Origin: Fidelibacterota bacterium UBA2986
GTDB taxonomy: Bacteria; Fidelibacterota; Marinisomatia; Marinisomatales; AB-629-J13
Assembly: GCA_002346675.1 (NCBI GenBank)
Contig: DEAI01000006.1
Location: 9,565 to 73,564, forward strand
DNA length: 64,000 nt
Direction of reading: 5' to 3'
The translations under genes were made by a program, and so were the position numbers. Below the pieces are notes generated by a model. It ran no database searches, was not told the origin of the DNA, and saw only the letters and a program-made list of their open reading frames with translations. Positions 10,008-55,566 of this stretch are shown here, piece after piece. Within the stretch, counting starts at the first letter, position 1. The number at the start of each line of letters is the position of its first letter.

Positions 10008-10226
10008 TTTTAATTCCTCCATTATAATTGACTTCAAATTTCAATAATCATTTTGGTATAAAAAACTTTAAACCCCACCCATCCTATCGTAAACGAGAAC
10101 AAAGCGAGATCATCTTCTCTCACACCAAACCTTACTACTTCTAAAATCTTTTCGGCAGAACACCTTTATAGCAAAAATATTGCGACTCTCTCCGACTGCC
10201 TTTTCCCATACCCTCCAACAAGAAAT

Positions 10227-10258
10227 CATGCGGGAGCGGCCTTTGCCGCCCCCGCATG
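10227..10258 (-). terminator. Rho-independent terminator of the 2,472-aa gene
   Basis: Minus-strand RNA is CAUGCGGGGGCGGC-AAAG-GCCGCUCCCGCAUG, a 14-bp stem with one G-U pair, followed by AUUUCUUGUU. It starts ~12 nt after the stop at 10271-10273. Confidence 0.8.
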
Positions 10259-10270
10259 ACCATGTTTTTT

Positions 10271-16200: not shown

Positions 16201-17689
16201 ACCAGCGATAGTCACCGGGCTCTGTGGTTGCTCCGGTTGCCGAATCTCCATTGACATCTACGGTGAGCGGAAATTCACACAGCATACCTAAATCATAGAC
16301 ACATGATCCGTCATCCACTGTGGCATCTGGGTTGTAGTTCAGCGCTTCTGAATCAGTACAACCAAAAACATCTTCCACTTCACCCAATGAAAATATTCCA
16401 TCATGGGGCGCTCCACCTGAGGCCACATTACCGCTGCCATCGGTATAATCTAGACTCCAGCTCACCTCACTTTGGTAGGAACCATAGTCAACAACAATGC
16501 TGTAGTTTCCATCAGCAACACAGAGCACATCGGCTCCCTCTGATCCCTCATCCAATGTTCCCTCAGCTACTAAATTGCCGTCGGATAGATCGTTAATGAT
16601 ATACACATTGCCGTTCCACCCATCTCCATAGGTATCATACATTGACATTGTGATATCATTGGCATCACACTCATCGTACTCGCATGAAGCGTCATCTATA
16701 TTGGCATCAGGGTTATAGTTATTTGCCTGTGGATCAGTACATCCTTCTACGGCAGCCGTCCAGCCAATCTCAAAGTCAGCGGGGTCTGCTGTATACCATC
16801 CGGCAATACGAATGTGAATTGTACTTCCAATTCTTCCCTCAGTTGACTCTCCATAGTAGTCAACACCGGTGGCATGAAACAGCTGCTCAAAGTACTGGTA
16901 GCCATAATTAATAAAATCGGCATAACTGCCATACTCATCCAAACCACAAGTACCAATAGCCTGAATCATTTCATATTCTGGATAGCTGACCGTAAGAATA
17001 CCTGCCTCAGGTATGGTAAAAGTATACCATCCCTCTCCGCCATCGTGAGCATTGGTACCAACAGCTCCCTCTAAAGGATATTCACACACATCACCGTTAT
17101 AAAAACAGCTGCCGTCATCTGTATTGGCAGACTCATCATAATTGATTGCATCGGGGTCTGTACACCCATATACCGGAATGTCACCACCGACGGTAAACAT
17201 AAATGAACCCTCAGCGCCGCTGTCTATGGTTCCCTGACCAAGCACATTGCCATCGGGATCAGAAAACGATATAGTTCCCCCGTTCCACCCATCACCATAG
17301 GAGTCATAAAGATATACTGTAAAATCACCATCCTCCAAGGATAACACCACTGTAGGAGTACCATCGCCACCCGCACCGGAGTCTACGATGTTGGAGTTAG
17401 CATCCATCACCTCCCATGAATTTTCAGTGGACCAACTTCCAGGAACATATTCCCGGGTAACTTCGGTACTTCTAAATCCAGGGGTGTAATTTACTTCTCT
17501 CACGATAGTATCTGGTGTATTTCCAGACTCATAATATTCTGCTTTTTCCTTTTCAATCAAGGACTGAGCATATTCATTTGTTGCTTTGGTTGGATCAACC
17601 AGCCTCTGGTTCTCCACCTCTGCAAAGACAGAGGTAACCATAAGAGCGGCTACAAAGCTAAACAATATGGATTGTTTAAGTAGTTTCAT
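10271..17689 (-). CDS. Giant (2,472 aa) acidic modular secreted surface protein with a T9SS C-terminal sorting domain. Carries repeated 'GDGWNG'/'SEVSW' modules, pre-peptidase-C-terminal (PPC)-like beta-sandwich modules and Fn3-like modules. No catalytic domain recognised.
   Basis: Uninterrupted ORF. AGGAG lies 7 nt upstream of ATG 17689. Signal peptide is MKLLKQSILFSFVAALMVTSVFA. 'DDEYEDNDGSGTSWDIGPGTYDLVHCSVDPDWFQISV' and 'DDMYEDDDTKDIAT...' fit the PPC-domain pattern. C-terminus 'EQNFPNPFNPVTNISYQIP...SGVYLYMITAGDF..KKMVLMK' is a T9SS tail. Confidence 0.85.
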   Translation of the reverse strand: MKLLKQSILFSFVAALMVTSVFAEVENQRLVDPTKATNEYAQSLIEKEKAEYYESGNTPDTIVREVNYTPGFRSTEVTREYVPGSWSTENSWEVMDANSNIVDSGAGGDGTPTVVLSLEDGDFTVYLYDSYGDGWNGGTISFSDPDGNVLGQGTIDSGAEGSFMFTVGGDIPVYGCTDPDAINYDESANTDDGSCFYNGDVCEYPLEGAVGTNAHDGGEGWYTFTIPEAGILTVSYPEYEMIQAIGTCGLDEYGSYADFINYGYQYFEQLFHATGVDYYGESTEGRIGSTIHIRIAGWYTADPADFEIGWTAAVEGCTDPQANNYNPDANIDDASCEYDECDANDITMSMYDTYGDGWNGNVYIINDLSDGNLVAEGTLDEGSEGADVLCVADGNYSIVVDYGSYQSEVSWSLDYTDGSGNVASGGAPHDGIFSLGEVEDVFGCTDSEALNYNPDATVDDGSCVYDLGMLCEFPLTVDVNGDSATGATTEPGDYRWYSFDVDDDYDNLTVSLCGSGFDTKMEIWNGCDNFLVENDDFCGLQSEFTLMPVTPGTGWVKVFGYGSSFGDYVLTVTAFNNPNQPTLSAEGVPGGVNLSWEPVVTNALTATPTNTDVVDLFGSNPAKGDEPEVRHASGFYNVSTNIADTDLNLRDTDLTINMQDSYGDGWNGNVLMIGENSFTLESGTDGTASLSLADGVYDVSCDGGSWQGEVSWQIVDTNSGEELLSGGAPYSGILELGETGEVLGCTDVNATNYGYNCEGMSVGDPTIDDGCCEYPAPANDLCEDAEPVSGPYPVTVSGTTSSSTVDCEGVLDWYAVWYDIELPYANNSVSITLCGAEGMTNTGIIVMDDCGCDDWLVSSYTFDGTCISHEFTITEDGYGGGMGSILFPAMLEPDQDFELTVDVQELYVPTFNVFRYGDPIAEGITGVSYFDGDVEPDVENCYTVSQMLPGGEESGHSNEACASSIAGIEGDTMDDPFVVGAIPFTTFGTTLGFYDNYDEVCPYAGSTSPDVVYRYDATEDISVDISLCGEGTYYDTKVYVYENDASVLAGCNDDECANSHTSWLSSLSVDLVAGNTYYIVVDGYGGMMGDYELTVGAEGLCADDMYEDDDTKDIATDHGENGTWGYALCTSDNPDGAVQPGGFTAIDWSVVTVGPWSNLNVSTLGTGDAGNDIDLFVEDYDGDGICDWGGGDDLAGSGNWDATEAATYANLSDDPMTVYVGVIYYAGEDPITYELTIGVEGVDCPECPQNLTATPLVESIDLAWDPPYVSPGGRSGEFGDMGTASNRQYSIDRPGSKKALNQSKDELKISGLHPYGHGNPAALEAYNNEKKFQQIMSSGRNSVASSHAELQELIAQARAQTVDQDVRATLLVQMYDSWGDGWNGNELCIGGGYEQSCFTFDTGNYAEEYLDIDNGSYSVSCDGGSYQSEVSWTISDVASGEVLLDGGAPYSGTLFVDGDEPPPPPECNATEVIISCDGGSWQSEVSWTINGEDGSSFSGGAPYTSEECLEGGNYDVTGADSYGDGWNGNYLTVTGTDGTVYLNWTLESGTDGSTSFEVGGSVDVFGCTDPDAANYNPDATEDDGSCVYDGQVCEYPLSASGGSNDASGESQWFHYSVGADGSITISSQNETDDAAWDTYLYVLGSCETNEEGSYTDILTYNDDCCGYYGPSTVEFNVTAGQDLYLYWYNAYDSGPFAFTIEEGESVEECVDDEYEDNDGSGTSWDIGPGTYDLVHCSVDPDWFQISVNNGQSLRLVVTEGDVDVSGNMDVGIWVFELDESYTQVYSPDLTEHDVTWTNNSDHPMVANFAVGDFWNGAFEGTYTMVVELIDFEQTTYTVYRDGAAIASDMLLTGFEDSDIVENVEYCYEVTASSGGIESPPSSPACAMLVYVEPPDAPSNVVAEGGWLNVDGADYPAITWSWDYDFPEPSGTVVNVDILTDNYGSETSWDIADADGNIVANGEGYESNTMYSTPVELEDGDYTFTIYDAYGDGICCSYGEGYYELSLDDGTILASGGDFTTMESTSFTISSGGRDVSASQFNINDGSFEFEHGLRDIIFELCFAFAGTDYCFQTVETSITIYGFGDGDEVCGWVYAIDGGIYSDPSEEACAAAGGTSTVDVTVDHSAGWNMVSLAVGTDANGVGDLFSGHIEGTLYEYPYVAVDALNNGQGYWLRFDSDGSDTQTGDPVDDLGISLSAGWNLIGSVSQDAGIDDPDGVVIEGTLYGYPYSEPVNAVTPGKGYWLRASADGMVYLSSGASLPRTRAELTANSLTVNGMKLHFGVEVTEELALSHSLPPKPFDGAFDVRFAGDTKIAEDAAVIDVMNPSSELVIEYNIVKDAGDYMLWVLAADGEEIVLDGMGTVSLPGSVTHMTLNRVPEVPEAFGLEQNFPNPFNPVTNISYQIPEASDVSIAVYNMMGQKVADLVQAHVPAGFHSVVWDSHNLQGEPVSSGVYLYMITAGDFHAMKKMVLMK

Positions 17690-45730: not shown

Positions 45731-46483
45731 CTATCCCTTTACACAACGAATAGAAAATCCGTTTCTCTTATTGTCTTCAAAACCCCTGCCGATACCTGAG
45801 TTACTATAAACAAGTAGCCTGTACCACGCATTGTCATTATTGTACTCGGTAGAGGACCAAAAGAATCCCGAGACGCCGACATGGTCAAAGTTACCATTGT
45901 TGTAGTAGCGGTAACCACTAGGAAGGAAATCAAAACCACTTTTCTGATCATATCCTAGATTATTTATTAAATCACCATCAGGCCATAAATCCGTTTCACC
46001 TACAATCTTACTCCCTTCATTTGTACCTCTCCAACCTGTGCTACTTACTTCCTCCTCATTCATCCCAAGATACATCTCTAATTCTTTAACCTCATCATCC
46101 GTAGGTACATTCCAGCCCTCTGGACATATCCCTCTATCATCATCAACCGCATACCAATTATACAAATAACCATAAGTATCAGCACTACCCTCATCATCAT
46201 CATAAACTGCATAGGCACCTGTTTCTGTTTCATTTAACTCACTCCATTCAAAACTACTGTATCCTGTAGGTATCTCATCACCATTCCTGTAATGGGTCAC
46301 CTTTAGATTCTCTGCCATCCAAAGCTGGCTACCAATTTGAACATTTTGATAAATATTACCATCTAAATCAGTTATCGTACAATCTTCTGTCTGTGTTATA
46401 CCTCTATCTGTACAATCTTTATTCTTCTCGTTTTCACATGACAACACAAACAACACTAATGGTATGAATAGAAAGCGGTTCAT
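45731..46483 (-). CDS. Lipoprotein with a Fibrobacter-succinogenes-major-paralogous (FISUMP) domain
   Basis: MNRFLFIPLVLFVLSC (lipobox), then DLDGNIYQNVQIGSQLWMAENLKV, YGYLYNWYAV..RGICPEGWNVPTDDE, FLPSGYR, FWSST and GFSIRCVKG. The track ORF begins upstream at 46555, but that extension overlaps no signal sequence. Confidence 0.8.
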   Translation of the reverse strand: MNRFLFIPLVLFVLSCENEKNKDCTDRGITQTEDCTITDLDGNIYQNVQIGSQLWMAENLKVTHYRNGDEIPTGYSSFEWSELNETETGAYAVYDDDEGSADTYGYLYNWYAVDDDRGICPEGWNVPTDDEVKELEMYLGMNEEEVSSTGWRGTNEGSKIVGETDLWPDGDLINNLGYDQKSGFDFLPSGYRYYNNGNFDHVGVSGFFWSSTEYNNDNAWYRLLVYSNSGIGRGFEDNKRNGFSIRCVKG

Positions 46484-46577
46484 TTGCTCTAATTTACCCC
46501 ATCCACACTTTTTCACAAACAACACTAATGATATAAAATAAGAAAGCCCCATCATAAGACGAGGCTTTTAAAGGGAG

Positions 46578-46649
46578 TAGCCCGTACGAGAATCGAACTC
46601 GTGTTACCGCCTTGAGAGGGCGGCGTCCTAACCCCTAGACGAACGGGCC
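46578..46649 (-). tRNA. tRNA-Glu (anticodon CTC), CCA not encoded
   Basis: Minus strand is GGCCCGU-UC-GUCUAGGGGUUAGGAC-G-CCGCC-CUCUCAA-GGCGG-UAAC-ACGAG-UUCGAUU-CUCGU-ACGGGCU-A. Layout is like E. coli tRNA-Glu. The 1:72 pair is G-U. Confidence 0.92.
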
Positions 46650-46663
46650 TTTCCAATAATCTG

Positions 46664-46734
46664 CTGGGGAGGAAGGAGTTGAACCCTCACTTACGGAACC
46701 AGAATCCGCTGTCCTACCATTAGACGACTCCCCA
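46664..46734 (-). tRNA. tRNA-Gln (anticodon CTG), CCA not encoded
   Basis: Minus strand is UGGGGAG-UC-GUCUAAUGGUAGGAC-A-GCGGA-UUCUGGU-UCCGU-AAGU-GAGGG-UUCAACU-CCUUC-CUCCCCA-G. The U1-A72 pair and G73 are typical of bacterial tRNA-Gln. Confidence 0.92.
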
Positions 46735-46787: not shown

Positions 46788-46811
46788 AAAAAAGGGCTCC
46801 CGAAGGAGCCC
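46788..46811 (-). terminator. Rho-independent terminator of the Sec-candidate gene / redox cluster
   Basis: Minus strand is GGGCUCC-UUCG-GGAGCCC followed by UUUUUU, ~27 nt after the stop at 46838. Confidence 0.9.
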
Positions 46812-46837
46812 TTAGTAGATTAATGAAATAGTTCTTT

Positions 46838-48622
46838 TTACTTCATCACCATCATTTTTTTGATGATGGTTTTATTATCAGTTTTTAGAGTATACAAATA
46901 CATCCCCGATGGTACATTAGACGCATTAAAAATTGCTTCATGAACTCCGACATCCTGAATCCTATCTACCAATCGAGCAATTTCCTGACCCGATAAATTG
47001 TGCACCAGTAATTTCACACTGGTCTGCTGTGTAATCTCATATTGAATTGAGGTAACCGGGTTGAATGGGTTGGGATAATTCTGTAGAAGAGTCAACTCAT
47101 CTGGAAAAGATGAAACTGACCGCTTTCTCAGCTGCAGGTTATCCCCTAAATTTTCAATATTGATAATCCCTGAACCATTCAGAATATATTCAGTACCGGT
47201 TTCTGAGTTTATCAAAACCCATACTTTGCTATCTTCGGTATTTTTTTTAATATCAAAAGAAATATTGACTTTTTCAGTATTCTTCATCAACTCAATCTTT
47301 CCGTAATCTTCTGCGTAAGTCATATTATCTGAAAAACGAACATCAAAAGCGCCTACCGGTGGTTTTGGAGGGAGGCTGTAGCTGAGTCTCTCACTCTCCG
47401 GTACCTTTGTACCAAAGTAAAGAGGAATATTATTAAAGCGAATTACATTTGCATCTACTAATCTATTTAAAAAGAATTTTGTTCTGCCCTGATTCTCAGA
47501 TGCAGCGATTGTGATCTCTCCATCATTATATGATCTTAACCAATATCCTTTTCCTGGCTCAATAATCTCTGCGATAGAGTATCCTACATCAAATGAATAG
47601 ATTGTATTTGGTATGATCAAATTATCCGGATCTAAGATAGAATTTGAATAGACCGATGTAGAAACTCCTGAAATCATATTCCAATCTTCAGCAATCGGAA
47701 TGGTTATTTCTTCAATTTCAAAACCGGTCAGAGTTGAAAAACCACCTTCATCATCAAAGCGAATCCAGTAACCTGTTCCATTTTCTAAATTGGATTCTAA
47801 ATTGTATCCATTGTCAAATGAATACAGTGTATTTTCAATTGCATCTGGGAAAATGTATTGATAACTCGTATTATCCATCGTCAAAGGCAAACCAACTGTA
47901 ACCCAATCAGGCGAATACGCCAGCATCATGTCCATAGTGGGGTCCTGCCAGTCATTGGTGATTTCTCCCTGGTAAATCTCTTTACTACTCGAGGAATAGG
48001 ATTGAATTAATACAATGGTATGTATATTATTCAAATCCCAAGAAGGATCTAAATCAAAATGATGTGAGAACTGTCCTGTCTCTCCTTCTGCATATAGGTC
48101 AAAAGCAAAATGTTCATAACCTTCTACAGTAGCAAAATAATTGTTATTATAAAAATAGGTTAGAAGAAAGACTATCTTATTATCGCTGGTTGTAATATCT
48201 CCTGTCATAGCAATATCTGCAACTAGATCTAACCCACCATCATTTTGATTCAAATATGTAATAAAATCCATTTGGACTGGACTATCATCATTAATTAAAT
48301 CATTATAAACATTCATATAATATGGGTACATATTGGTTCCACCACCGACCACATCCGTGTGACCATTAAATTCAACATGAGGAATTCCTCCGACGCCATA
48401 CATTGAATTACGCTGGGAGTATCCGGGGCTGGTATGTCCGTCACCTTCCCAAATTAGGGGAATAACATTGGTATGATTTTCGTAAAGCTGTTTGAGCCCG
48501 GCCCGGGCATCAGGACAGTATCCTCACCAAGTTTGAGTGAAAACCTCACCAACAACTGAAATTTGAGTTCCAAAGATAAGTGAGTTTATGAACACACCCA
48601 TGACAATCATTATTTTTTTCAT
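46838..48622 (-). CDS. Candidate selenoprotein: signal peptide + thioredoxin-fold 'FTxxW-U-GYCP' domain + shared surface cassette + T9SS C-terminal sorting domain (594 codons including one in-frame TGA at 48524-48526)
   Basis: The track ORF (46838..48403) is only the part after the first Met. The same frame is open up to ATG 48622 (GGGAG 7-8 nt upstream; MKKIMIVMGVFINSLIFGTQISVVGEVFTQTW), then TGA, then GYCPDARAGLKQLYENHTNVIPLIWEGDGHTSPGYSQRNSMYGVGGIPHVEFNG... The paralog at 48739-50058 has LLELFTNVGCSPCVP at the aligned site. The tail LLQNYPNPFNPVTSIQYEI...GMYLYTLKTDN..KKMMVMK is a T9SS CTD. Confidence 0.7.
48488..48523 (-). promoter_or_regulatory. Candidate bacterial SECIS-like hairpin immediately 3' of the in-frame UGA
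   Basis: The RNA after UGA is GGAUACUGUC-CUG-AU-GCCCG-GGC-CGGGC-UCAAA-CAG. The core GC stem is at 48496-48508, 15 nt after the UGA, and can be extended by CUG/CAG. Fold not computed. Confidence 0.4.
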
Positions 48623-48738
48623 TTTTCGCTCCCTTAATTCAATATTTTTATAAAAATTTATACTAAAACACTTCATCTAAAACCTATCTCTTCAAAAGTT
48701 ACTCTGGAAGGTACAAATATTCTAGGATATCTCCAATT

Positions 48739-50058
48739 TTAATGTGATACCGGCAAAAGTGAATGCACCCGATTCGATTGATAAATTTTATTGGTCTGTA
48801 CCGATTGGACCATTGACACAACATAGAAAAAAGGATTATCGTTGGAATATCCTTCCGGTTTTAAGAGAGATATTCGTGATGTATACATCTCATCCTTAGT
48901 AAGTGAACTGAATTCAGCACTTGAATTTAGATCTCTCATGACCTGCATATGAATCAGCTCACCATTGAAAGCTGCATATTCTATACTATCCTCAACAACT
49001 ACTGCCCAAATCTTCACCACATCATTGATTGTATTAAACGGTCGCACTTCCAAATCAACAATAATGCTGTCACCACTAGCTGATAGATCATAAGTGTGTC
49101 CTAAATACATGTCACTTTCCTGTGCAATTTCAGATAAAACGATGCTATTGGCATTATTTTCTACGGGACTCTGTCCATTCAAAATGTGAACACCGTTAAT
49201 TAAAACGACAGGACAAAACAGAATATTGTACATTGTCCGTCTTAGCTCAACATCAGCCGGATTATAATCATACATAGGGTCGATTGGCAGCGGTGAGTTC
49301 CAGTGATATCGAATTATAGTTATATTTTGGTCATAATCATACAAAATATCATCCAAAATATGGTTTACCGGTACACATGGACTGCAACCTACATTCGTAA
49401 ACAATTCCAATAATACCGAGTTGGCATCTTCACAATTATTTGATTGATCATCATCACAATATCCACAGCCATCAACTACAGCATTACCCCCCCAATTTCC
49501 TGAACAGTCCTGAACACAATCATTGCTGTAATCCTCATCGCAAACATTACATTCATCTAAATATGCTCCCCCCCCACATTCACCATTACAGTCCTTTTCT
49601 GTACCATCCGGATAGCCTGGACATGCACAATCACTATCTCCATTACAAACTCCACAGTTATCAATAAGTGCTGTCCCGTTACACCTTCCTAAACAATCCA
49701 ACTCCCCCGGACATGCGATCACCGATAAATCAAAATAAAGAACGGATTTAGAATAATCTGAGTTTACCTGAAATTTTAACAGTGAAGGTCCCTGCTCCTT
49801 ACCATAAAATATAATATTGTTTTTACTTACGGAGACAATATTTACCTTACTCGTATCAGAAATAGTTAATAGTTGTGGTGTCCCAATTACTTTATTCAGT
49901 TGACTCATTAATGAGTCCAAATTATAATATAAAGTGTCTTTATGAATTAAATTATTTGAAATCACAATTTCATCTACGGGAGGGTCCACTGCATTCGGAA
50001 TTAAATCACATCCAAAATAAATAAGAAAAATACTGACCAAGAAAAAATGATTTTTCAA
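48739..50058 (-). CDS. Lipoprotein with a Cys-rich 'DxCGxCxGD' repeat region and a thioredoxin-fold CSPC domain (Cys paralog of the Sec candidate)
   Basis: MKNHFFLVSIFLIYFGC (lipobox). The Cys-rich block is at 49432-49713 (IDNCGVCNGDSDC, LDECNVCDEDYSNDC, VDGCGYCDDDQSNNC). LLELFTNVGCSPCVP has its CxxC at 49375-49386. 4-nt overlap with the upstream OMP gene. Confidence 0.75.
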   Translation of the reverse strand: MKNHFFLVSIFLIYFGCDLIPNAVDPPVDEIVISNNLIHKDTLYYNLDSLMSQLNKVIGTPQLLTISDTSKVNIVSVSKNNIIFYGKEQGPSLLKFQVNSDYSKSVLYFDLSVIACPGELDCLGRCNGTALIDNCGVCNGDSDCACPGYPDGTEKDCNGECGGGAYLDECNVCDEDYSNDCVQDCSGNWGGNAVVDGCGYCDDDQSNNCEDANSVLLELFTNVGCSPCVPVNHILDDILYDYDQNITIIRYHWNSPLPIDPMYDYNPADVELRRTMYNILFCPVVLINGVHILNGQSPVENNANSIVLSEIAQESDMYLGHTYDLSASGDSIIVDLEVRPFNTINDVVKIWAVVVEDSIEYAAFNGELIHMQVMRDLNSSAEFSSLTKDEMYTSRISLLKPEGYSNDNPFFYVVSMVQSVQTNKIYQSNRVHSLLPVSH

Positions 50059-51686
50059 AATCTAACTTCCAACATTAATCGCATCCCGTCAAACGGACTG
50101 ATATATCGACACACTCCTCCGGTGCATCTCACCCCGCCTTTTTCGGCTCCGTAATTTGTTCTGAGTGTTATAATAGAAGAGGGTTTATAGGAAATTTCTC
50201 CGCTTATCCAACGTGCATTTTCATCGAATGAAGGGTCAGATGTCTGATCTGTAACCAATGAGAATGATAATTTTTGTTTCCAATCGACTGATAAAATTAC
50301 TTGCTGATTTTTATAATTTTTTCCACTCTTTGAAACATTTTGTGTGCCAAGTAAACCGCTGAATACATAGGAACCCATTTGTTTAGAGAAATAAAACGGA
50401 ATAAAGGAAATATATTGTTCTTTTGAGATTCCATCTGTAGAATAATCAGTAAAAGCAGCGAAGGATCGATTTTGGAATGTTATATCAGAATATTCCAGTT
50501 CAATATACCACTCTTGAAAAGGAAAATATTCTATATCCATTTTAGGCAAAAATTGAGTGTTTTTTAGTTCGCTGATTGATGTTCTACTGGCCTGAGAATA
50601 AATTCCGGTCAGCAAAAATGATTCACCTAAATTTTTTCGGTAATCTATATTAAACCCAACCTCATCTCCATAATCCACAACATGGGTCAAGTTTGCCAAC
50701 AATCCAACCACATGTTGAGGAAGCGAGGTAGGTCCTAAATTAAATGGTAATGATTTTGAGGCAAGACGGTTAAAATTTATTTTATTATCAGACGACTCAA
50801 TTCCATATTGATATAATTTATATTCGATCGTTAAAGTGGAATGATCAGGTAATGATCCAATCCATTGGGAATATAAAACAGTACCAGTTTGGTTAGATAT
50901 GGATTCAACAGTTTTTAATACTGTACCATCAAATTCCTGCTTGACTAGAGGAAGGTCAAACCATTTCTTTAAAGCTCCGTATTCTATATTCCATTCCCAA
51001 TTATCTGAAAAATACGTAAATGTAATCCCACTTCCAATGATAGTTGCTTCCTGTTCATTAGTATCTACAATGGTCGATGAAAGAGTCTCTATATTCAGTG
51101 ATTCCATTCGGACCGGAGACCTAAATTTGGATAAAGTAAAATAACCAGAACTATTCCAATCTTGATCTTCTGGAAAATAACTTAGTTGAGCCCCTCCAGC
51201 ATCATAACTAGTCAAAATATCCGGTGTGCGGTCAGCTGATGGAGAATATGAAGTAAACTCATTCCTTCTGCCATAGAGAGATGTGATTTGAATCTCCTCA
51301 CTCAGATCAAAATCTACTCGTAGACCAAATGGACGGTTATCAAAATCTAACGATTTATCCTCAAAGAAGTTAAAGGCCAGCCCGTTTCCAAAAACGGCTG
51401 TTAAGTGCCCTGAATAAAGAGCCCATGACTCTTGAACCAAGTTAAAAGATAACGTACGAATTCCCGATAATTTAAGTCCATATTCCGGAGGTTTATTATA
51501 GACAAATTCCGAAGTAACATCCCAGTTATCCCCTTGAATATTTAAAGTTAAAAAATTTTCAGCATAGGTAAATTCATTTTCGGGTTGCATATTTTCACCA
51601 TATCGGGAATAAATACTTCCTCTATATTCTTGTGCAAAAACACTGGTAAATATGCTAACTATAAAGATAGTTAAATATAAATTCAT
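50055..51686 (-). CDS. Large outer-membrane beta-barrel protein, family not recognised
   Basis: Signal peptide MNLYLTIFIVSIFTSVFAQ, 543 aa of alternating beta-strand-like segments rich in Y/F/S/N, and a C-terminal ...GMRLMLEVRF aromatic terminus. Confidence 0.65.
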   Translation of the reverse strand: MNLYLTIFIVSIFTSVFAQEYRGSIYSRYGENMQPENEFTYAENFLTLNIQGDNWDVTSEFVYNKPPEYGLKLSGIRTLSFNLVQESWALYSGHLTAVFGNGLAFNFFEDKSLDFDNRPFGLRVDFDLSEEIQITSLYGRRNEFTSYSPSADRTPDILTSYDAGGAQLSYFPEDQDWNSSGYFTLSKFRSPVRMESLNIETLSSTIVDTNEQEATIIGSGITFTYFSDNWEWNIEYGALKKWFDLPLVKQEFDGTVLKTVESISNQTGTVLYSQWIGSLPDHSTLTIEYKLYQYGIESSDNKINFNRLASKSLPFNLGPTSLPQHVVGLLANLTHVVDYGDEVGFNIDYRKNLGESFLLTGIYSQASRTSISELKNTQFLPKMDIEYFPFQEWYIELEYSDITFQNRSFAAFTDYSTDGISKEQYISFIPFYFSKQMGSYVFSGLLGTQNVSKSGKNYKNQQVILSVDWKQKLSFSLVTDQTSDPSFDENARWISGEISYKPSSIITLRTNYGAEKGGVRCTGGVCRYISPFDGMRLMLEVRF

Positions 51687-51703
51687 CTGAGAAGTGCTAT
51701 TTT

Positions 51704-52249
51704 TTAATCTAACTTCGTAGAATCTGAGGCAGCTTTTTTAGTCCCATCCAATACATCTACAATCACCGCTTCCATTTCCTTTTCATCTCCAGGGATGTAA
51801 CCGGAATGTTCCCATAATATTTTTCCATCTGGAGAAACTAGTATAGAAAATGGAAGAGCTTCTGTATTAAATTTTTCAAAGAATCTTTGCTCTGTATCTA
51901 AGTATATCGCATAAGAAATCTTCTTTGATTTTAATGTAGTAGAAATTTTCTTTATAGTTTTAGAGTCATCGACTGAAATTCCAACAACCTGAAAATCATC
52001 ATCTTTATATTTATGGTGCATGATTTCTAATTCTTTCATCTCCTTCAAACAAGGAACGCACCATGTAGCCCAAAAGCTCATCATAGTATATTTTTCATTT
52101 AAAATCTTTTTTGTGGATATCTTTCTACCTTTTAATGATTTTATTTTTACATTAGGTAAATCTCGATACTCCTCTTTAATATCTACTCCTTCAGAGTATA
52201 ATAATGATATGTGTGTGAAAATTAAAAATCCTATTATTTTGTATTTCAT
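51704..52249 (-). CDS. TlpA/ResA-like periplasmic thiol:disulfide oxidoreductase
   Basis: N-terminal anchor/signal, MMSFWATWCVPCLKEMKEL (WCxPC), and ...ALPFSILVSPDGKI. First gene of the four-gene minus-strand cluster. Confidence 0.85.
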   Translation of the reverse strand: MKYKIIGFLIFTHISLLYSEGVDIKEEYRDLPNVKIKSLKGRKISTKKILNEKYTMMSFWATWCVPCLKEMKELEIMHHKYKDDDFQVVGISVDDSKTIKKISTTLKSKKISYAIYLDTEQRFFEKFNTEALPFSILVSPDGKILWEHSGYIPGDEKEMEAVIVDVLDGTKKAASDSTKLD

Positions 52250-52392: not shown

Positions 52393-52416
52393 AAATGTAA
52401 GTTATTACTTACATTT
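52393..52416 (-). terminator. AT-rich hairpin, probable terminator after glnS
   Basis: AAAUGUAAGU-(4 nt)-ACUUACAUUU, a perfect 10-bp stem followed by a U-rich tract on the minus strand, ~30 nt after the glnS stop. It separates glnS from the redox cluster. Confidence 0.5.
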
Positions 52417-52445: not shown

Positions 52446-54131
52446 CTATCCAAAATTATTATCAACTTTCTTTTGTATTTTTTTCCAGGTGTCTCTTAGT
52501 GAAACCGTCCTATTAAAAATCAAATATTGTTCTGAAAAGTCTTCAGAGTCTAAACAAAAATAACCCTGTCTCTCAAATTGGATGGTTTCCCCTTTTTTAA
52601 CGGTTTGAACTGCTGGCTCCACTCTGCTTCCCTTTAAAACACTTAAAGAATTCGGATTTATATTTTGTGTAAAATGCCCTCCCTCCTCCACTTTTGCTGG
52701 ATTCTCAGTTGTAAATAATCTATCGTACAAACGAACTTCCATTGGCAGTGAATTCTCTGCCGATACCCAATGAAGTGTCCCCTTCACTTTTCTACCATCC
52801 GGAGCGGAACCTCCCTTTGTTTCAGGGTCATATGTACATCTTAATTCCACAATTTCTCCATTCTCATTTTTTATTATGTCTTTACAGGTGATAAAATATG
52901 CATATCGGAGTCGAACTTCTTTCCCCAGTGTCAATCGAAAAAACTTTTTGGGTGCATCTTCCATAAAATCTGATTTTTCTATAAATAATTCCCTGCTGAA
53001 TGGGATCTTTCGTTTTCCAGCACTTGGATCTTCAGGATTGTTAATTCCCTCCACCTCTTCCACTTTATCCTCTGGGAAATTCTCTATTACTATTTTAAGA
53101 GGATCTAATACTCCCATAAATCGTAACGCTCGTTTGTTCAAATCTTCCCTTACCGAGTGTTCAAGCAGAGCTATATCTGCTGTCATCTCCCGCTTCGCTA
53201 CTCCCAGATTTTCTGCAAATTTTCGAATGGAGGCCGGTGAATAGCCCCGCCTTCTCATTCCTGATATAGTGGGCATTCTCGGATCATTCCATCCAGACAC
53301 GTAGTTGCCCTCCACCAGCTCCAATAGCATTCGTTTGCTCATAACAGTAAAATTCAAATTCAATCGAGCAAATTCAATTTGCCGGGGATGATAGACATTT
53401 AACTGTTCTAAAAACCAGTCATAGAGTGGTCGATGATCCTCAAATTCCAGCGTACAAAGTGAATGAGTAATTCCCTCGATGGAATCTTCCAGACCATGGG
53501 CCCAATCATACATAGGATAAATACACCATGCGTCCCCGGTTCTGTGATGAGATTCATGCAAGATCCTATAAAGAACCGGATCTCTCATATTCAGATTAGA
53601 GTTATTCATATCAATTTTTGCACGAAGTACTTTTGAACCATTGGAAAACTCTCCTGCTTTCATTCGCCTGAATAAATCCAGATTCTCATCAGTGGGACGA
53701 TTACGAAAAGGGCTTTCCCTACCTGATTTGGTCAAAGTACCCCGAAATTGATTGATTTCTTCTGCAGATAAGTCACAGATAAATGCTTTTCCGTTTTTCA
53801 CCAGAGTCTCAGCATGAGTGTACATTTCATCAAAATAGTCTGAGGCATACAGTATTTTATCTCCCCACTCAAAACCCAACCATCTCACATCTTCGATAAT
53901 GGAACTTACATACTCTTCTTCTTCTTTGGATGGATTGGTATCATCAAACCTCAGATTGCACTGACCGTTGTATTTTTCTGCAAAACCAAAATTGATGCAG
54001 ATGGATTTGGCATGGCCAATGTGAAGATATCCATTTGGTTCCGGTGGAAATCGTGTGATGATATTTTTATGTTTTCCTGAGGACAGATCATCTTCAATAA
54101 TCTGCTGAATAAAATTTTTGGATTCAGTCAT
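52446..54131 (-). CDS. glnS: Glutaminyl-tRNA synthetase
   Basis: [17 protein letters not shown] (HIGH), VMSKR (KMSKS-type) and a C-terminal anticodon-binding beta-barrel region. ATG 54131 is preferred over the track's TTG 54137, giving an 8-nt overlap with the gltX stop. Confidence 0.93.
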
Positions 54132-55566
54132 GATCAATTGGCAGTATTTCTACCGCTTTCTCTAGTCTTCTAATACATACATCCTTCCCTAAAACTTCCA
54201 TCATATGAAACAGTGATGGACCTGCACCGGCTCCACTGACAGCCAACCGAACAGGATGAATAAATTTTGCAGGACTCAGCTCTTTTATATCGCTTAATTT
54301 TCTCAATTCAATTTCTATATTTTCTTGGGTCCAAGTTACTATATTTTTTAAGACTTCCATAAAATATATAATCAGTTCATTCACTTCATTAGTTTTCCAC
54401 CGCTTTCTCATAGTTTTTGAATCATATTCTTGCGGATCATCAAAAAAATAATCGCTGGAATCCATCAATTCAATAATTGTTTTACAGCGTGGTTTCATGA
54501 GCTCAATAACAGAGAGCAAATAATCGAGATATCTACTATCTCCCCACAACATATTTATGGAATGAATTGAATTTAAAATATCCTCATTTTTCATTTTTAA
54601 GATCGTCTGCTGATTCACCCACTCCAGCTTTTGAATGTCAAATACCGCTCCTTTTTTTAAAACCCGCTCCAAAGAAAATTCACCAATTAGTTCCTCCAAT
54701 CTAAAGAGCTCTTGTTCCGTCCCAGGGTTCCACCCCAGTAAAGCCAAATAATTTACCAAAGCGGAGCTTAAGAATCCCTGATCTCGAAATGCCTGTACTC
54801 CGGTAGCACCATGACGCTTACTCAACCGTTTTTTATCAGGTCCTAAGATCATGGGTAAATGTACAAATTGTGGAAGTCCATAACCCAGTGCATTGTATAA
54901 AATAATTTGTTTTGGAGTATTCGAAATGTGGTCCTCTCCACGGATAATGTGAGTGATTCCCATATCGTTATCATCTACAACCGCAGTAAAATTGTATGTG
55001 GGAGAACCGTCCGTGCGGGCTACTATGAAATCATCCAGCTCATTATTTTGTACAGTAATTTCACCATAAATGGAGTCTGAAAATTTTGTTTCTCCTTTTG
55101 GTATTTTAATTCTGATTACATTTAAAGTATTATTTTCAAGCTTTACTTTAATATTGTTCTGTGTAAGAGAGCGACATGTCCCAGGGTAGGTATAGCCTAA
55201 ACCTGCTTTTTCTCTTTCGCCCCTGATTCTAGCCAGCTCCTCCTTATCACAAAAACACCGATATGCATTATCTGATGTCAATAATTTTTGAATTGACTTT
55301 TTATATATATCATTTCTTTTGGATTGATAAACCAGTTTTTCATCCCAATCACAATTCATCCAATTCAGAGATTCGCAGATCTGATCCACAAAATTTTGCT
55401 TTGAGCGTACTTTATCAGTGTCTTCAATCCTCAGCAAGAATGTCCCATTATGGGATCGTGCAAACAACCAATTGAATAATGCCGTTCTTGCACCGCCTAA
55501 ATGGAGCTCTCCCGTTGGACTGGGAGCAAATCGGACTCTCACAGATTGGTTTGTATATTGTGTCAT
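54124..55566 (-). CDS. gltX: Glutamyl-tRNA synthetase
   Basis: [22 protein letters not shown] (HIGH-type), LRIEDTD and RLSKRHG (KMSKS-type). 480 aa. Confidence 0.93.

What the first reader, a model, noticed from the sequence alone, without database searches (positions are those of the whole stretch)
46838..52249. Four-gene envelope thiol-redox cluster: TlpA-like reductase, large beta-barrel OMP, CxxC lipoprotein, UxxC T9SS protein
Four co-directional genes lie between the hairpin at 52393-52416 and the strong terminator at 46788-46811. Spacing is tight for the first three genes: a 17-nt gap and then a 4-nt overlap, with 116 nt before the last gene.

The gene order suggests an electron path from periplasm to cell surface:
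1. A periplasmic WCVPC TlpA-like protein.
2. A 543-aa OMP barrel of unknown family.
3. A lipoprotein with a Cys-rich region and a CSPC thioredoxin fold.
4. A T9SS-exported paralog with U/C at the active site.

The neighbouring giant T9SS cargos contain dozens of conserved Cys pairs (CQTC, PDEC, SGC, GCTD...GSC). A dedicated surface disulfide-handling system is therefore a plausible function. I do not know a described system with this composition.
Basis: inference. Interest (0 to 1): 0.62.

Follow-up and report, generated by a model that had tools for sequence, protein, structure and literature searches.

The report
Outer-membrane thiol-redox module with selenoprotein
A gene set conserved across several bacterial phyla joins a periplasmic disulfide reductase, an uncharacterised outer-membrane barrel with an invariant cysteine pair, and cell-surface thioredoxin-like proteins (one built with selenocysteine), which suggests these bacteria carry thiol-reducing power out to their surface.

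Summary
Four co-directional minus-strand genes lie between an AT-rich hairpin and a strong terminator:
- a TlpA-like reductase (WCVPC);
- a 543-aa DUF6029 barrel;
- a lipoprotein with an Omp28/HBP35-like CSPC domain;
- a T9SS cargo whose homologous domain has an in-frame TGA (W-U-GYC).

TGA is an ordinary stop elsewhere in the window. This TGA is conserved in five related genomes, aligns with the catalytic Cys of homologues, and is followed by an invariant GC hairpin.

- A TlpA-like gene sits directly upstream of DUF6029 in 74/74 and 55/55 assessable loci from two clades only about 25% identical.
- Every full-length DUF6029 carries a GG..C....C pair before its last strand.
- A surface-targeted thioredoxin-fold protein (lipoprotein or T9SS cargo) follows in 61/71 and 22/26 loci.
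- In the second clade this partner belongs to a different thioredoxin-fold family, and 38/42 copies are selenoproteins.

The best reading is a module that delivers reducing equivalents from the periplasm to surface (seleno)thioredoxins through or at the barrel. That mechanism is inferred, not shown. The proposed link to the giant T9SS cargos, 29 kb away, is unsupported. I found no description of this module.

The parts
51704..52249 (-). g1: periplasmic TlpA/ResA-like thiol-disulfide reductase, 181 aa, N-terminal signal or anchor, WCVPC at 52049-52063
   Evidence: Pfam AhpC-TSA 9.6e-20, Redoxin 5.4e-19, Thioredoxin_8. NCBIfam ResA 4.9e-20 and TlpA 1.9e-17, both below the equivalog cut-offs. An orthologous gene lies directly upstream of DUF6029 in 74/74 and 55/55 loci, and every one has CxPC.
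50055..51686 (-). g2: DUF6029 outer-membrane beta-barrel, 543 aa, signal peptide, about 24 strands, no plug domain, C-terminal beta-signal ending in F; invariant Cys pair C521/C526 (CTGGVC, nt 50106-50126) in the hairpin before the last strand
   Evidence: PF19494 81.5 bits against a cut-off of 27. AF2 model pLDDT 72.6, 24 long strands plus a short hairpin. Foldseek returns only generic large barrels at TM about 0.45. Cx4C is present in all 153 C-terminally complete representatives out of 166.
48739..50058 (-). g3: lipoprotein, 439 aa: lipobox (IYFG-C17, Asp at +2), Ig-like domain (about aa 29-114), Cys-rich module (15 Cys in aa 116-205), Omp28/HBP35-like thioredoxin-type domain with GCSPC (nt 49375-49389) and a C-terminal Omp28 beta-sandwich
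   Evidence: NF045500 7e-8, lipoprot_Omp28 0.003, DUF1223 1.3e-4. In the orthologue profile A4, 45/60 members hit Pfam Omp28. PDB profile hits: 2axo, 1fo5, 2r2c (Omp28), 5y1a (HBP35). AF2 is confident only for the N-terminal Ig-like domain. Present downstream of the barrel in 61/71 loci.
46838..48622 (-). g4: T9SS-secreted selenoprotein, 594 codons: signal peptide, Omp28/HBP35-like domain with W-U-GYC, a repeat-containing middle region of unknown family, type-A CTD (aa 516-592, nt 46847-47077)
   Evidence: Translation. NF045500 1.9e-19. TIGR04183 44.6 bits against a cut-off of 23. PF18962 35.8 against 27. hhalign to the g3-type profile: probability 98%, E 1.5e-13 over 194 columns. Active-site stretch aligns to HBP35 VVLEVFTAEWCGYCP.
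48524..48526 (-). In-frame UGA read as selenocysteine (codon 33 of g4)
   Evidence: TGA is conserved at this codon in L006, L007, L008, L009 and L011, with conserved protein sequence on both sides. It aligns with the first Cys of CxxC in g3, HBP35 and the A4 profile. The signal peptide lies upstream of it.
48496..48508 (-). SECIS-like hairpin GCCCG-GGC-CGGGC, starting 19 nt after the U of UGA
   Evidence: MFE fold -19.3 kcal/mol, z -2.0. The stem is identical in five related genomes. It is built from rare codons GCC-CGG-GCC-GGG, joint codon-usage probability about 3e-4. An analogous hairpin in the second clade shows compensatory changes.
46792..46813 (-). Intrinsic terminator ending the cluster
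   Evidence: 9-bp stem with 6 GC pairs, loop of 4, T-run.
52393..52416 (-). AT-rich 12-bp hairpin between glnS and g1, a possible terminator of the upstream glnS/gltX unit
   Evidence: Sequence and fold. The consensus terminator scan did not call it.

Best explanation
The cluster is a conserved envelope thiol/selenol-redox module of T9SS-bearing FCB-group bacteria (the window is from a Marinimicrobia/SAR406 lineage).

Shown:
- A TlpA-type CxPC reductase gene and a DUF6029 outer-membrane barrel gene form an obligate pair.
- The barrel always carries a Cys-x4-Cys hairpin before its last strand.
- In most loci the pair comes with one or more thioredoxin-fold C/UxxC proteins that carry a cell-surface address, either a lipobox followed by an acidic residue or a type-A T9SS CTD.
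- In this window there are two such partners: a Cys lipoprotein (g3) and a Sec-containing T9SS cargo (g4).

Inferred mechanism:
- TlpA is kept reduced by the usual inner-membrane CcdA/DsbD route.
- It hands reducing equivalents to the surface thioredoxin-like proteins at or through the wide, plug-less barrel.
- The hand-over is either direct, with a partner domain sitting in the lumen, or goes via the barrel's own Cys pair.
- The surface enzymes then reduce or isomerise disulfides outside the cell. Candidate substrates are secreted or T9SS-anchored proteins such as cysteine peptidases, disulfide-rich food proteins, or oxidised surface thiols.
- Selenocysteine would give an active site that reacts faster and resists irreversible over-oxidation in oxic seawater.
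For: 1. Domain identities of all four genes.
2. A TlpA-like gene lies immediately upstream of DUF6029 in 74/74 assessable genome loci and 55/55 assessable loci of a second clade. Barrels of the two clades are about 25% identical. The same holds in four further distant representatives.
3. CxPC is present in every TlpA-like copy.
4. The Cys pair is, apart from glycines, the only residue type invariant across distant DUF6029 members. It is present in all 153 C-terminally complete representatives.
5. A surface-addressed thioredoxin-fold partner is present in 61/71 and 22/26 loci.
6. The partner belongs to two different thioredoxin-fold families: Omp28/HBP35-like, and TlpA/AhpC-TSA-like. It is encoded upstream or downstream of the pair. 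This is non-orthologous replacement that keeps the theme.
7. Sec replaces the N-terminal active-site Cys in g4 and in 38/42 second-clade partners. Each has a SECIS-like hairpin with compensatory changes: covariation 0.375 against 0.14 for shuffles, 0/500 shuffles as high. UxxC is a hallmark of catalytic redox sites.
8. The nearest characterised relative, HBP35, is a T9SS surface protein with thioredoxin activity that depends on the aligned Cys48 and Cys51.
9. The model shows about 24 strands and no plug. Long conserved loops and the Cys hairpin are all on the odd-to-even (extracellular or lumenal) side.
10. g2 and g3 overlap by 4 nt and there is no internal terminator, consistent with co-expression.
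Against: - There is no biochemical, structural or expression evidence for any member.
- The barrel model is of moderate confidence, and pLDDT is below 50 at the Cys hairpin itself. I could not inspect coordinates.
- The Cys pair could simply be a structural disulfide.
- Ten loci, and some distant ones, have only TlpA plus the barrel with no nearby partner. The pair therefore has a function that does not need an adjacent surface thioredoxin.
- HBP35 complemented an E. coli dsbA mutant, so relatives can act as oxidants.
- No CcdA/DsbD gene and no Sec machinery lie in the window.
- The physiological substrate is unknown.
Confidence: 0.45

Rival explanations
1. Scaffold or export platform without trans-membrane electron flow. 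DUF6029 is an anchor or assembly partner for the surface lipoprotein or T9SS cargo, in the manner of SusC/SusD, LptD/LptE or PorP-type anchors. Its Cys pair is a structural disulfide. TlpA works only in the periplasm, keeping the Cys/Sec-rich partners (and perhaps the barrel) correctly reduced or isomerised before export.
For: - The order barrel gene then lipoprotein gene, with a 4-nt overlap, is typical of barrel-lipoprotein complexes.
- g3 has 15 extra Cys in a 90-aa module that would need redox care in the periplasm.
- The Cys hairpin is modelled on the loop side of the barrel, not the periplasmic side.
Against: - T9SS cargos have their own translocon and anchoring route, yet they recur as partners.
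- Loci with TlpA plus the barrel and no partner exist.
- A catalytic Sec would be pointless in an enzyme that cannot be re-reduced.
- This reading does not explain why a reductant-type TlpA is obligatory for a barrel that holds a structural disulfide.
Confidence: 0.27
2. Surface oxidant defence or oxidative folding. The surface thioredoxin-fold proteins act as peroxidase-like scavengers, or as DsbA/DsbC-like oxidases and isomerases for secreted Cys-rich proteins. The barrel is a channel for a small redox substrate such as a low-molecular-weight thiol or disulfide, or peroxide.
For: - HBP35 complements dsbA.
- Second-clade partners give weak AhpC/TSA hits.
- L001 neighbours include glutaredoxin, OsmC and rhodanese genes.
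- Sec resists over-oxidation (general knowledge).
Against: - The motif is W-C/U-x-x-C of the Trx/TlpA type, not the peroxiredoxin T/S-x-x-C type.
- TlpA-type WCxPC proteins are reductants in characterised systems (general knowledge).
- No peroxiredoxin family score reaches its cut-off.
Confidence: 0.15
3. Metal or haem acquisition. The barrel imports Cu or haem. The thioredoxin-like proteins are Sco- or HBP35-like binding proteins, and TlpA keeps their ligand cysteines reduced, as TlpA does for ScoI and CoxB.
For: - HBP35 binds hemin and supports growth under hemin limitation.
- OprC, TonB-dependent transporters and MtrB are among the Foldseek hits.
- TlpA's known clients are copper proteins (general knowledge).
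Against: - The Foldseek matches are generic (TM about 0.45, rmsd above 10 Å).
- The barrel has no plug or TonB box.
- There is no Sco CxxxC...H motif and no Met/His-rich motif.
- The His residues in the barrel loops are not conserved in distant members.
Confidence: 0.06
4. Artefact. g4 is a pseudogene or two ORFs split by a genuine stop, and the four-gene adjacency is fortuitous.
For: - TGA is a normal stop in this genome.
- g4 scores below the NF045500 cut-off.
Against: - The TGA and both flanks are conserved in five other genomes.
- It aligns to the catalytic Cys of homologues.
- An invariant hairpin follows it.
- The signal peptide needed by a T9SS cargo lies upstream of the TGA.
- Synteny holds in about 130 loci.
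Confidence: 0.02

Closest known systems
HBP35 (PG0616) of Porphyromonas gingivalis, PDB 5y1a
   Same: - A T9SS type-A CTD cargo displayed on the cell surface.
- An N-terminal thioredoxin-like motif, EVFT..WCGYCP, almost identical to g4's EVFTQTW-U-GYCP.
- In-vitro thioredoxin activity that depends on the two aligned cysteines.
   Different: - HBP35 uses Cys, not Sec.
- It is transcribed as a 1.1-kb mRNA, i.e. apparently monocistronic. No DUF6029 or TlpA partner is reported for it, and I did not check its neighbours.
- Outside the motif the similarity to g4 is weak (E 0.17 by sequence, 0.005 by profile).
- Hemin binding was not assessed here.
Omp28 outer-membrane lipoprotein family (PF11551, NF033782; PDB 2r2c)
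   Same: - 45/60 orthologues of g3 hit Pfam Omp28.
- The A4 profile hits the 2r2c sequence, and the g3 model hits its fold.
- The lipoprotein signal is shared.
   Different: - g3 itself is below both family cut-offs.
- g3 carries additional Ig-like and Cys-rich modules.
- Omp28 has no assigned function and has not been described as a CxxC redox protein in what I could search.
Predicted selenoprotein family 'Hypothetical protein GOS_C' = NF045500 'Omp28-related selenoprotein'
   Same: - A UxxC selenoprotein with an Omp28-like thioredoxin-type domain.
- Marine metagenomic origin.
   Different: - g4 scores 70 bits against a 200-bit cut-off.
- g4 has a long extra region and a T9SS CTD in place of the model's dockerin-like tail.
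- The family is catalogued only as a predicted selenoprotein, with no context or function.
DsbD/CcdA to TlpA/ResA/CcmG periplasmic reductive pathways
   Same: - g1 has the TlpA active site FWATWCVPC.KEM and the redoxin fold.
- It has thioredoxin-fold client proteins.
   Different: - Known pathways end in the periplasm, at cytochrome c, Sco/CoxB or Msr.
- None includes an outer-membrane barrel or surface clients.
Working analogues only: MtrCAB outer-membrane electron conduit; DsbD beta domain; LptD/LptE and SusC/SusD barrel-lipoprotein pairs
   Same: - A wide barrel joins a periplasmic and a surface redox protein (Mtr).
- A membrane-embedded Cys pair relays electrons between thioredoxin folds (DsbD).
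- The barrel gene is followed by its lipoprotein gene (Sus, Lpt).
   Different: - No sequence relationship to any of them.
- No haems.
- MtrB appears only as a generic Foldseek match.
- The analogy is mechanistic inference, not membership.

Membership tests
TlpA/ResA-type periplasmic thiol-disulfide reductase (g1) | Redoxin / thioredoxin-like fold domain | tested here: met
   PF00578 71.2 bits, PF08534 68.9 bits, PF13905 53.4 bits, all above their cut-offs.
TlpA/ResA-type periplasmic thiol-disulfide reductase (g1) | W-C-x-P-C active site and an N-terminal export signal or anchor | tested here: met
   WCVPC at aa 63-67. Hydrophobic N-terminus MKYKIIGFLIFTHISLLYS. CxPC is present in all orthologues.
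TlpA/ResA-type periplasmic thiol-disulfide reductase (g1) | Score above the NCBIfam equivalog cut-off for TlpA, ResA or DsbE | tested here: not met
   ResA 72.1 against 170, TlpA 63.7 against 230, DsbE 37.4 against 123. It belongs to the superfamily, not to any named equivalog.
TlpA/ResA-type periplasmic thiol-disulfide reductase (g1) | Reducing redox potential; electrons received from CcdA/DsbD | not testable with these tools
   No CcdA/DsbD gene lies in the window. This needs biochemistry.
DUF6029 (PF19494) (g2) | Pfam gathering score over the full length | tested here: met
   81.5 bits against 27; aa 33-543 match profile positions 47-538 of 538.
DUF6029 (PF19494) (g2) | C-terminal GG..C..G.C hairpin before the last strand (a feature defined here) | tested here: met
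   C521 and C526. The motif is present in 153/153 C-terminally complete representatives.
Wzi-like polysaccharide-associated barrels (suggested for DUF6029 in PMC9603273) | Similarity to Wzi, or genomic linkage to OPX/capsule genes | tested here: not met
   No Wzi among the PDB sequence hits, nor among the 50 Foldseek matches listed. None of the neighbouring genes I annotated is a polysaccharide-export gene.
Omp28 family (PF11551 / NF033782) (g3) | Family model score above the cut-off | tested here: not met
   No Pfam Omp28 hit for g3 at E ≤ 0.1. NF033782 scores 16.8 against 150. However, 45/60 orthologues hit PF11551, and the profile hits the Omp28 structure 2r2c. g3 is a divergent relative.
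Bacterial lipoprotein (g3) | Lipobox with Cys after the signal-peptide h-region | tested here: met
   LIYFG-C17. Orthologues show ...FYSC-ESND...LGC-ELIPE and ...WSC-E/DW. Surface exposure via an acidic export signal is inferred only.
NF045500 Omp28-related selenoprotein / GOS_C (g4) | Model score above the cut-off | tested here: not met
   70.3 bits against 200, covering only model positions 40-267 of 377.
NF045500 Omp28-related selenoprotein / GOS_C (g4) | UxxC at the thioredoxin-type active site | tested here: met
   W-U-GYC at codons 32-36. The family motif UxxC is listed in PMC13188914.
Bacterial selenoprotein (g4) | In-frame UGA that aligns with Cys in homologues and is conserved in orthologues | tested here: met
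Bacterial selenoprotein (g4) | SECIS stem-loop shortly downstream of the UGA | tested here: met
   Hairpin at 48496-48508. The stem is invariant in six genomes and built from rare codons. No covariation is available in this clade. Compensatory changes are seen in the analogous second-clade hairpin.
Bacterial selenoprotein (g4) | selA/selB/selD and tRNA-Sec in the genome | not testable with these tools
   None in the 64-kb window. The rest of the genome is not available.
T9SS type-A cargo (g4) | C-terminal sorting domain TIGR04183 / PF18962 above the cut-off | tested here: met
   44.6 against 23, and 35.8 against 27, at aa 516-592.
HBP35-like surface thioredoxin (g4) | Thioredoxin motif plus CTD; thioredoxin activity; hemin binding | tested here: inconclusive
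   The motif and the CTD are shared. Overall sequence similarity is marginal (E 0.17). The activities cannot be tested here.

The most novel reading that the evidence does not exclude
DUF6029 is an outer-membrane thiol relay, a functional counterpart of DsbD in the other membrane. Its invariant Cys-x4-Cys hairpin, sitting in the lumen of a plug-less barrel of about 24 strands, would be redox-active. It would accept electrons from periplasmic TlpA and pass them to surface-anchored thioredoxin or selenothioredoxin proteins. FCB-group bacteria would thereby gain a catalytic disulfide-reducing activity outside the cell.
Probability: 0.25. Interest if true: 0.9.

Novelty: new variant of a known kind. 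Interest (0 to 1): 0.72.

Why it matters
Thiol-disulfide pathways in Gram-negative bacteria are thought to stop in the periplasm. How a surface or secreted thioredoxin such as HBP35 could be recycled is unexplained.

This module supplies a concrete, widely conserved candidate for that missing link: a reductant-type TlpA locked to an outer-membrane barrel whose only invariant side chains (glycines aside) are two cysteines, plus surface-addressed thioredoxin folds.

It also does four other things:
- It gives a testable function to DUF6029, which has about 750 cluster representatives at E ≤ 1e-10, and to the Omp28 family.
- It shows that predicted marine selenoprotein families, so far catalogued only as sequences, are T9SS-secreted surface enzymes.
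- It gives an ecological rationale for Sec use, namely an oxidation-resistant catalyst in oxic seawater.
- It bears on how abundant ocean heterotrophs (Marinimicrobia/SAR406) handle disulfide-rich organic matter or keep surface cysteine enzymes active.

Tried and rejected
- **Profile search for more homologues.** A second homologous-protein run with the barrel alignment returned the same 17 proteins. That search was wasted.
- **Wide DUF6029 alignment.** The 37-sequence alignment of distant DUF6029 proteins was too diverse to seed a metagenome scan. A narrower one worked.
- **Barrel against PDB, by sequence.** Nothing was found.
- **Barrel against PDB, by fold.** Foldseek on the barrel model gave only generic matches to 22-26-strand barrels such as TonB-dependent transporters, OprC, MtrB and PapC (TM about 0.45, rmsd above 10 Å). 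I do not use these for function.
- **AF2 on g3.** The model is poor across the thioredoxin-like part (pLDDT below 50 for aa 207-315). Its Foldseek list is mostly unrelated Ig-like sandwiches. Only the Omp28 hit 2r2c agrees with the sequence evidence.
- **Rfam.** Only tRNAs were found.
- **Wzi / polysaccharide reading of DUF6029.** Considered because of PMC9603273. Rejected for this subfamily, because neighbourhoods contain redox and T9SS genes, not OPX/capsule genes.
- **General TGA recoding (code 4 or 25).** Rejected, because 11/35 ORFs end in TGA.
- **Link to the giant T9SS cargos at 18-17689.** They are real T9SS cargos. But they are 29 kb away and are not a conserved neighbour.
- **Literature.** Searches for DUF6029, Omp28 with selenoprotein, selenoprotein with T9SS, and Omp28 with TlpA found no description of the module.

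Full report
**1. Observation**

All four genes are present on the minus strand, as described.
- g1: 51704-52249, 181 aa.
- g2: 50055-51686, 543 aa.
- g3: 48739-50058, 439 aa, TTG start.
- g4: 46838-48622, 594 codons, interrupted by one in-frame TGA at 48524-48526.

Spacing is 17 nt between g1 and g2, a 4-nt TTGA overlap between g2 and g3, and 116 nt between g3 and g4.

A strong intrinsic terminator follows g4 at 46792-46813. A 12-bp AT-rich hairpin sits between glnS and g1 at 52393-52416. No terminator-like site was found inside the cluster on the coding strand. The promoter scan is uninformative: 32 sites found against 31.9 expected.

**2. Gene identities**

- **g1** is a redoxin/TlpA/ResA-type protein with an N-terminal hydrophobic signal. 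Its active site, FWATWCVPCLKEM, is the classical TlpA motif. It stays below every NCBIfam equivalog cut-off.
- **g2** matches Pfam DUF6029 over its full length (81.5 bits against a cut-off of 27). It has no PDB relative by sequence.
  - An AF2 model (pLDDT 72.6, pTM 0.68) gives about 24 long strands plus a short hairpin, and no plug domain.
  - Foldseek finds only generic large barrels.
  - All long connections are odd-to-even, which is the extracellular or lumenal side when the N-terminus is periplasmic. They contain the family's conserved motifs.
  - The last of these connections is the hairpin RC521TGGVC526R.
- **g3** is a lipoprotein (IYFG-C17-D). It has an Ig-like domain, then a Cys-rich module with 15 Cys in 90 aa. 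Then comes a domain with ELFTNVGCSPC that matches NF045500, Omp28 and DUF1223 weakly.
- **g4** has a signal peptide, the stretch GEVFTQTW-U-GYCP, a region of about 290 aa of unknown family, and a type-A T9SS CTD above its cut-offs.
- **g3 and g4 are distant paralogs.** hhalign of g4 aa 1-240 against the profile of g3-type domains gives 98% probability and E 1.5e-13 over 194 columns.

**3. The TGA encodes selenocysteine**

- TGA terminates 11 of 35 long ORFs in the window, so there is no general recoding.
- This is the only U..C / C..U candidate in 64 kb.
- The codon is conserved in five other genomes whose barrels are 58-76% identical. Protein sequence is conserved on both sides: GTQISV[IV]GEVFT[QA]TW-U-[GP]YCPDAR.
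- It aligns with the first Cys of CxxC in g3, in the profile, and in HBP35.
- The signal peptide that a T9SS cargo needs lies upstream of it.
- A GCCCG-GGC-CGGGC hairpin starts 19 nt after the UGA. Its stem is identical in all six genomes. It is built from codons that are rare here, with a joint probability of about 3e-4.
- selA, selB, selD and tRNA-Sec are not in the window. That point could not be tested.

**4. Comparative genomics**

*First clade.* A scan of one genome per GTDB species with a DUF6029 alignment gave 79 loci. They come from Neomarinimicrobiota, Ignavibacteria, Bacteroidota, Rhodothermaceae and similar groups. The window clusters with the Marinimicrobia.
- A TlpA-like gene lies directly upstream of the barrel in 74 of 74 assessable loci.
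- An Omp28-like E-[LIVF]-[FY]-T-N-x-x-C-x-x-C protein lies directly downstream in 61 of 71.
- The ten exceptions form one subclade in which RNase G, dnaN and recF follow the barrel.
- 45 of 60 of the downstream proteins hit Pfam Omp28. Their profile hits these PDB entries:
  - 2axo, a DUF1223 protein;
  - 1fo5, a thioredoxin;
  - 2r2c, Omp28;
  - 5y1a, HBP35.
- Six carry a T9SS CTD. The rest carry a lipobox whose Cys is usually followed by Asp or Glu.
- g4 orthologues occur only in the closest relatives, L006-L011.

*Family breadth.* An exhaustive profile search found 1595 cluster representatives at E ≤ 1e-3 and 748 at E ≤ 1e-10. All 153 of the 166 retrieved sequences that are C-terminally complete have GG..C....C before the last strand. 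In an alignment of 37 distant members, the two Cys are the only invariant non-glycine residues.

*Second clade.* This clade comes from marine metagenomes. Its barrels are about 25% identical to g2.
- TlpA is upstream in 55 of 55 assessable loci.
- A T9SS-CTD protein starts within 700 nt downstream in 22 of 26.
- These partners are not Omp28-like. They are TlpA/AhpC-TSA-like thioredoxin folds, often with dockerin modules and often in tandem copies.
- 38 of 42 have an in-frame TGA exactly at ...SW-U-x-x-C. Three have Cys.
- Downstream of these UGAs, a 9-bp helix with an invariant G-U in the loop shows compensatory changes. The covariation score is 0.375 against 0.14 for shuffles, with 0/500 shuffles as high. 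Slid controls score at most 0.187.

*More distant representatives*.
- L086 and L169: a redoxin gene followed by DUF6029.
- L168: a T9SS ATW-U-GSC selenoprotein encoded upstream of the TlpA gene and DUF6029.

*Synthesis.* The invariant core is the TlpA gene plus the Cys-pair barrel. The recurrent theme is a surface-addressed C/UxxC thioredoxin fold, supplied by at least two non-orthologous families in variable positions.

**5. Mechanism**

*Shown:* the domain composition, the obligate TlpA-barrel pairing, the invariant Cys pair, the surface addresses of the partners, and Sec at the attacking position of the redox motif.

*Established knowledge:*
- TlpA/ResA/CcmG-type WCxPC proteins are periplasmic reductants fed by CcdA/DsbD.
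- UxxC sites are catalytic redox centres.
- T9SS type-A cargos and acidic-signal lipoproteins of this group are surface-exposed.
- HBP35 is a T9SS surface protein with Cys48/Cys51-dependent thioredoxin activity (PMC2907840).

*Inferred:* reducing equivalents move from TlpA to the surface thioredoxins at or through the wide, plug-less barrel. This could happen by insertion of a partner domain into the lumen, or through the barrel's own Cys pair. I put about 0.45 on this flow. Within that, I put about 0.25 on the barrel Cys pair being a true relay, an outer-membrane analogue of DsbD.

*Substrates are unknown.* One second-clade locus has a 1434-aa C25 (gingipain-type) cysteine peptidase with a dockerin directly upstream of tlpA. 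This hints at keeping surface cysteine enzymes reduced, but it is a single case.

*Rivals:*
- a scaffold or export role with a structural disulfide (0.27);
- surface antioxidant or oxidase/isomerase activity (0.15);
- metal or haem uptake (0.06);
- artefact (0.02).

**6. Comparison with what is known, and novelty**

- The selenoprotein family is already catalogued as 'Hypothetical protein GOS_C' / NF045500, with no function assigned (PMC13188914). g4 is a divergent relative below the cut-off, with a T9SS tail.
- HBP35 is the closest characterised protein.
- Omp28 has no assigned function.
- The one paper I found that mentions DUF6029 notes HHpred similarity to Wzi-like barrels near polysaccharide-export genes (PMC9603273). 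The neighbourhoods examined here do not support that reading for this subfamily.
- I found no description of the TlpA-DUF6029-surface thioredoxin module. This is absence of evidence within an open-access library only.

I rate the module a new variant of a known kind: a periplasmic thiol-reductive pathway extended by a dedicated outer-membrane component and surface clients. The relay reading would make it categorically new.

**7.

However, the fourth gene is lineage-specific. The link to the giant Cys-rich cargos 29 kb away is unsupported. The electron path remains an inference.

Noticed in passing
L087-L166 (for example L087:3264-4484, L094:6973-11184, L140:6635-10359): Marine-metagenome DUF6029 loci carry one to three tandem T9SS-CTD genes with an in-frame TGA at ...SW-U-x-x-C. 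38 of 42 copies have TGA and 3 have Cys. These are TlpA/AhpC-TSA-like thioredoxin folds, many with dockerin modules, so they appear to be a family of T9SS-secreted selenoproteins.
   Followed up: partly
L144:102-4406: A 1434-aa C25 (gingipain-type) cysteine peptidase with propeptide and dockerin is encoded directly upstream of the tlpA-DUF6029-selenoprotein genes. It is a possible client of a surface reductase. Seen in one locus only.
   Followed up: no
L001:4760-7494 and 10978-11424: In a 104-kb Marinimicrobia-type contig the module is flanked by several small genes:
- glutaredoxin, OsmC, rhodanese and DUF6132 genes;
- a 217-aa T9SS-CTD protein with a CSIC...C motif that overlaps tlpA;
- a DUF2231 membrane protein downstream.
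This may be a larger redox island. The selenoproteome review lists Sec-containing forms of the glutaredoxin, OsmC-like and rhodanese-like families.
   Followed up: no
window 46577-46734 and 52446-55566: The cluster sits between genes inferred to be glnS and gltX (upstream) and tRNA-Gln(CTG) and tRNA-Glu(CTC) (downstream), that is, between two synthetase genes and tRNAs for the same two amino acids. The glnS/gltX assignment was inferred from Pfam labels on the syntenic locus L003, where the same two genes lie upstream of the module.
   Followed up: partly
window 49444-49713 (g3 aa 116-205): A Cys-rich module (15 Cys in 90 aa, motifs such as CGVCNGD and CNVCDED) matches no Pfam family. It recurs in dozens of otherwise unrelated marine proteins (P0186-P0220), some with dockerin, Fib_succ_major or T9SS domains.
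   Followed up: no
window 47100-47930 (g4 aa about 230-510): The middle of g4 contains a duplicated motif (LYSFDNGY...ENGTGYWIRF and IYSFDVGY...EPGKGYWLRS). It has no family match.
   Followed up: no
L007, L013, L015, L016, L021, L032 (record titles): Some MAG records holding near-identical Marinimicrobia-type loci are titled Winogradskyella, Lentisphaeria or Chromatiales. L007 has a barrel 76% identical to the window's. These are probably mislabelled bins or contaminating contigs.
   Followed up: no
window 45731-46555: A 274-aa lipoprotein-like ORF with a Fibrobacter succinogenes major paralogous domain (PF09603, E 7.8e-48) lies just downstream of the tRNAs.
   Followed up: no
window 18-17689: Two giant ORFs of 3339 and 2472 aa carry T9SS CTDs. 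The first also has LTD and CBM-like domains, and it is the ORF nearest the window edge.
   Followed up: partly
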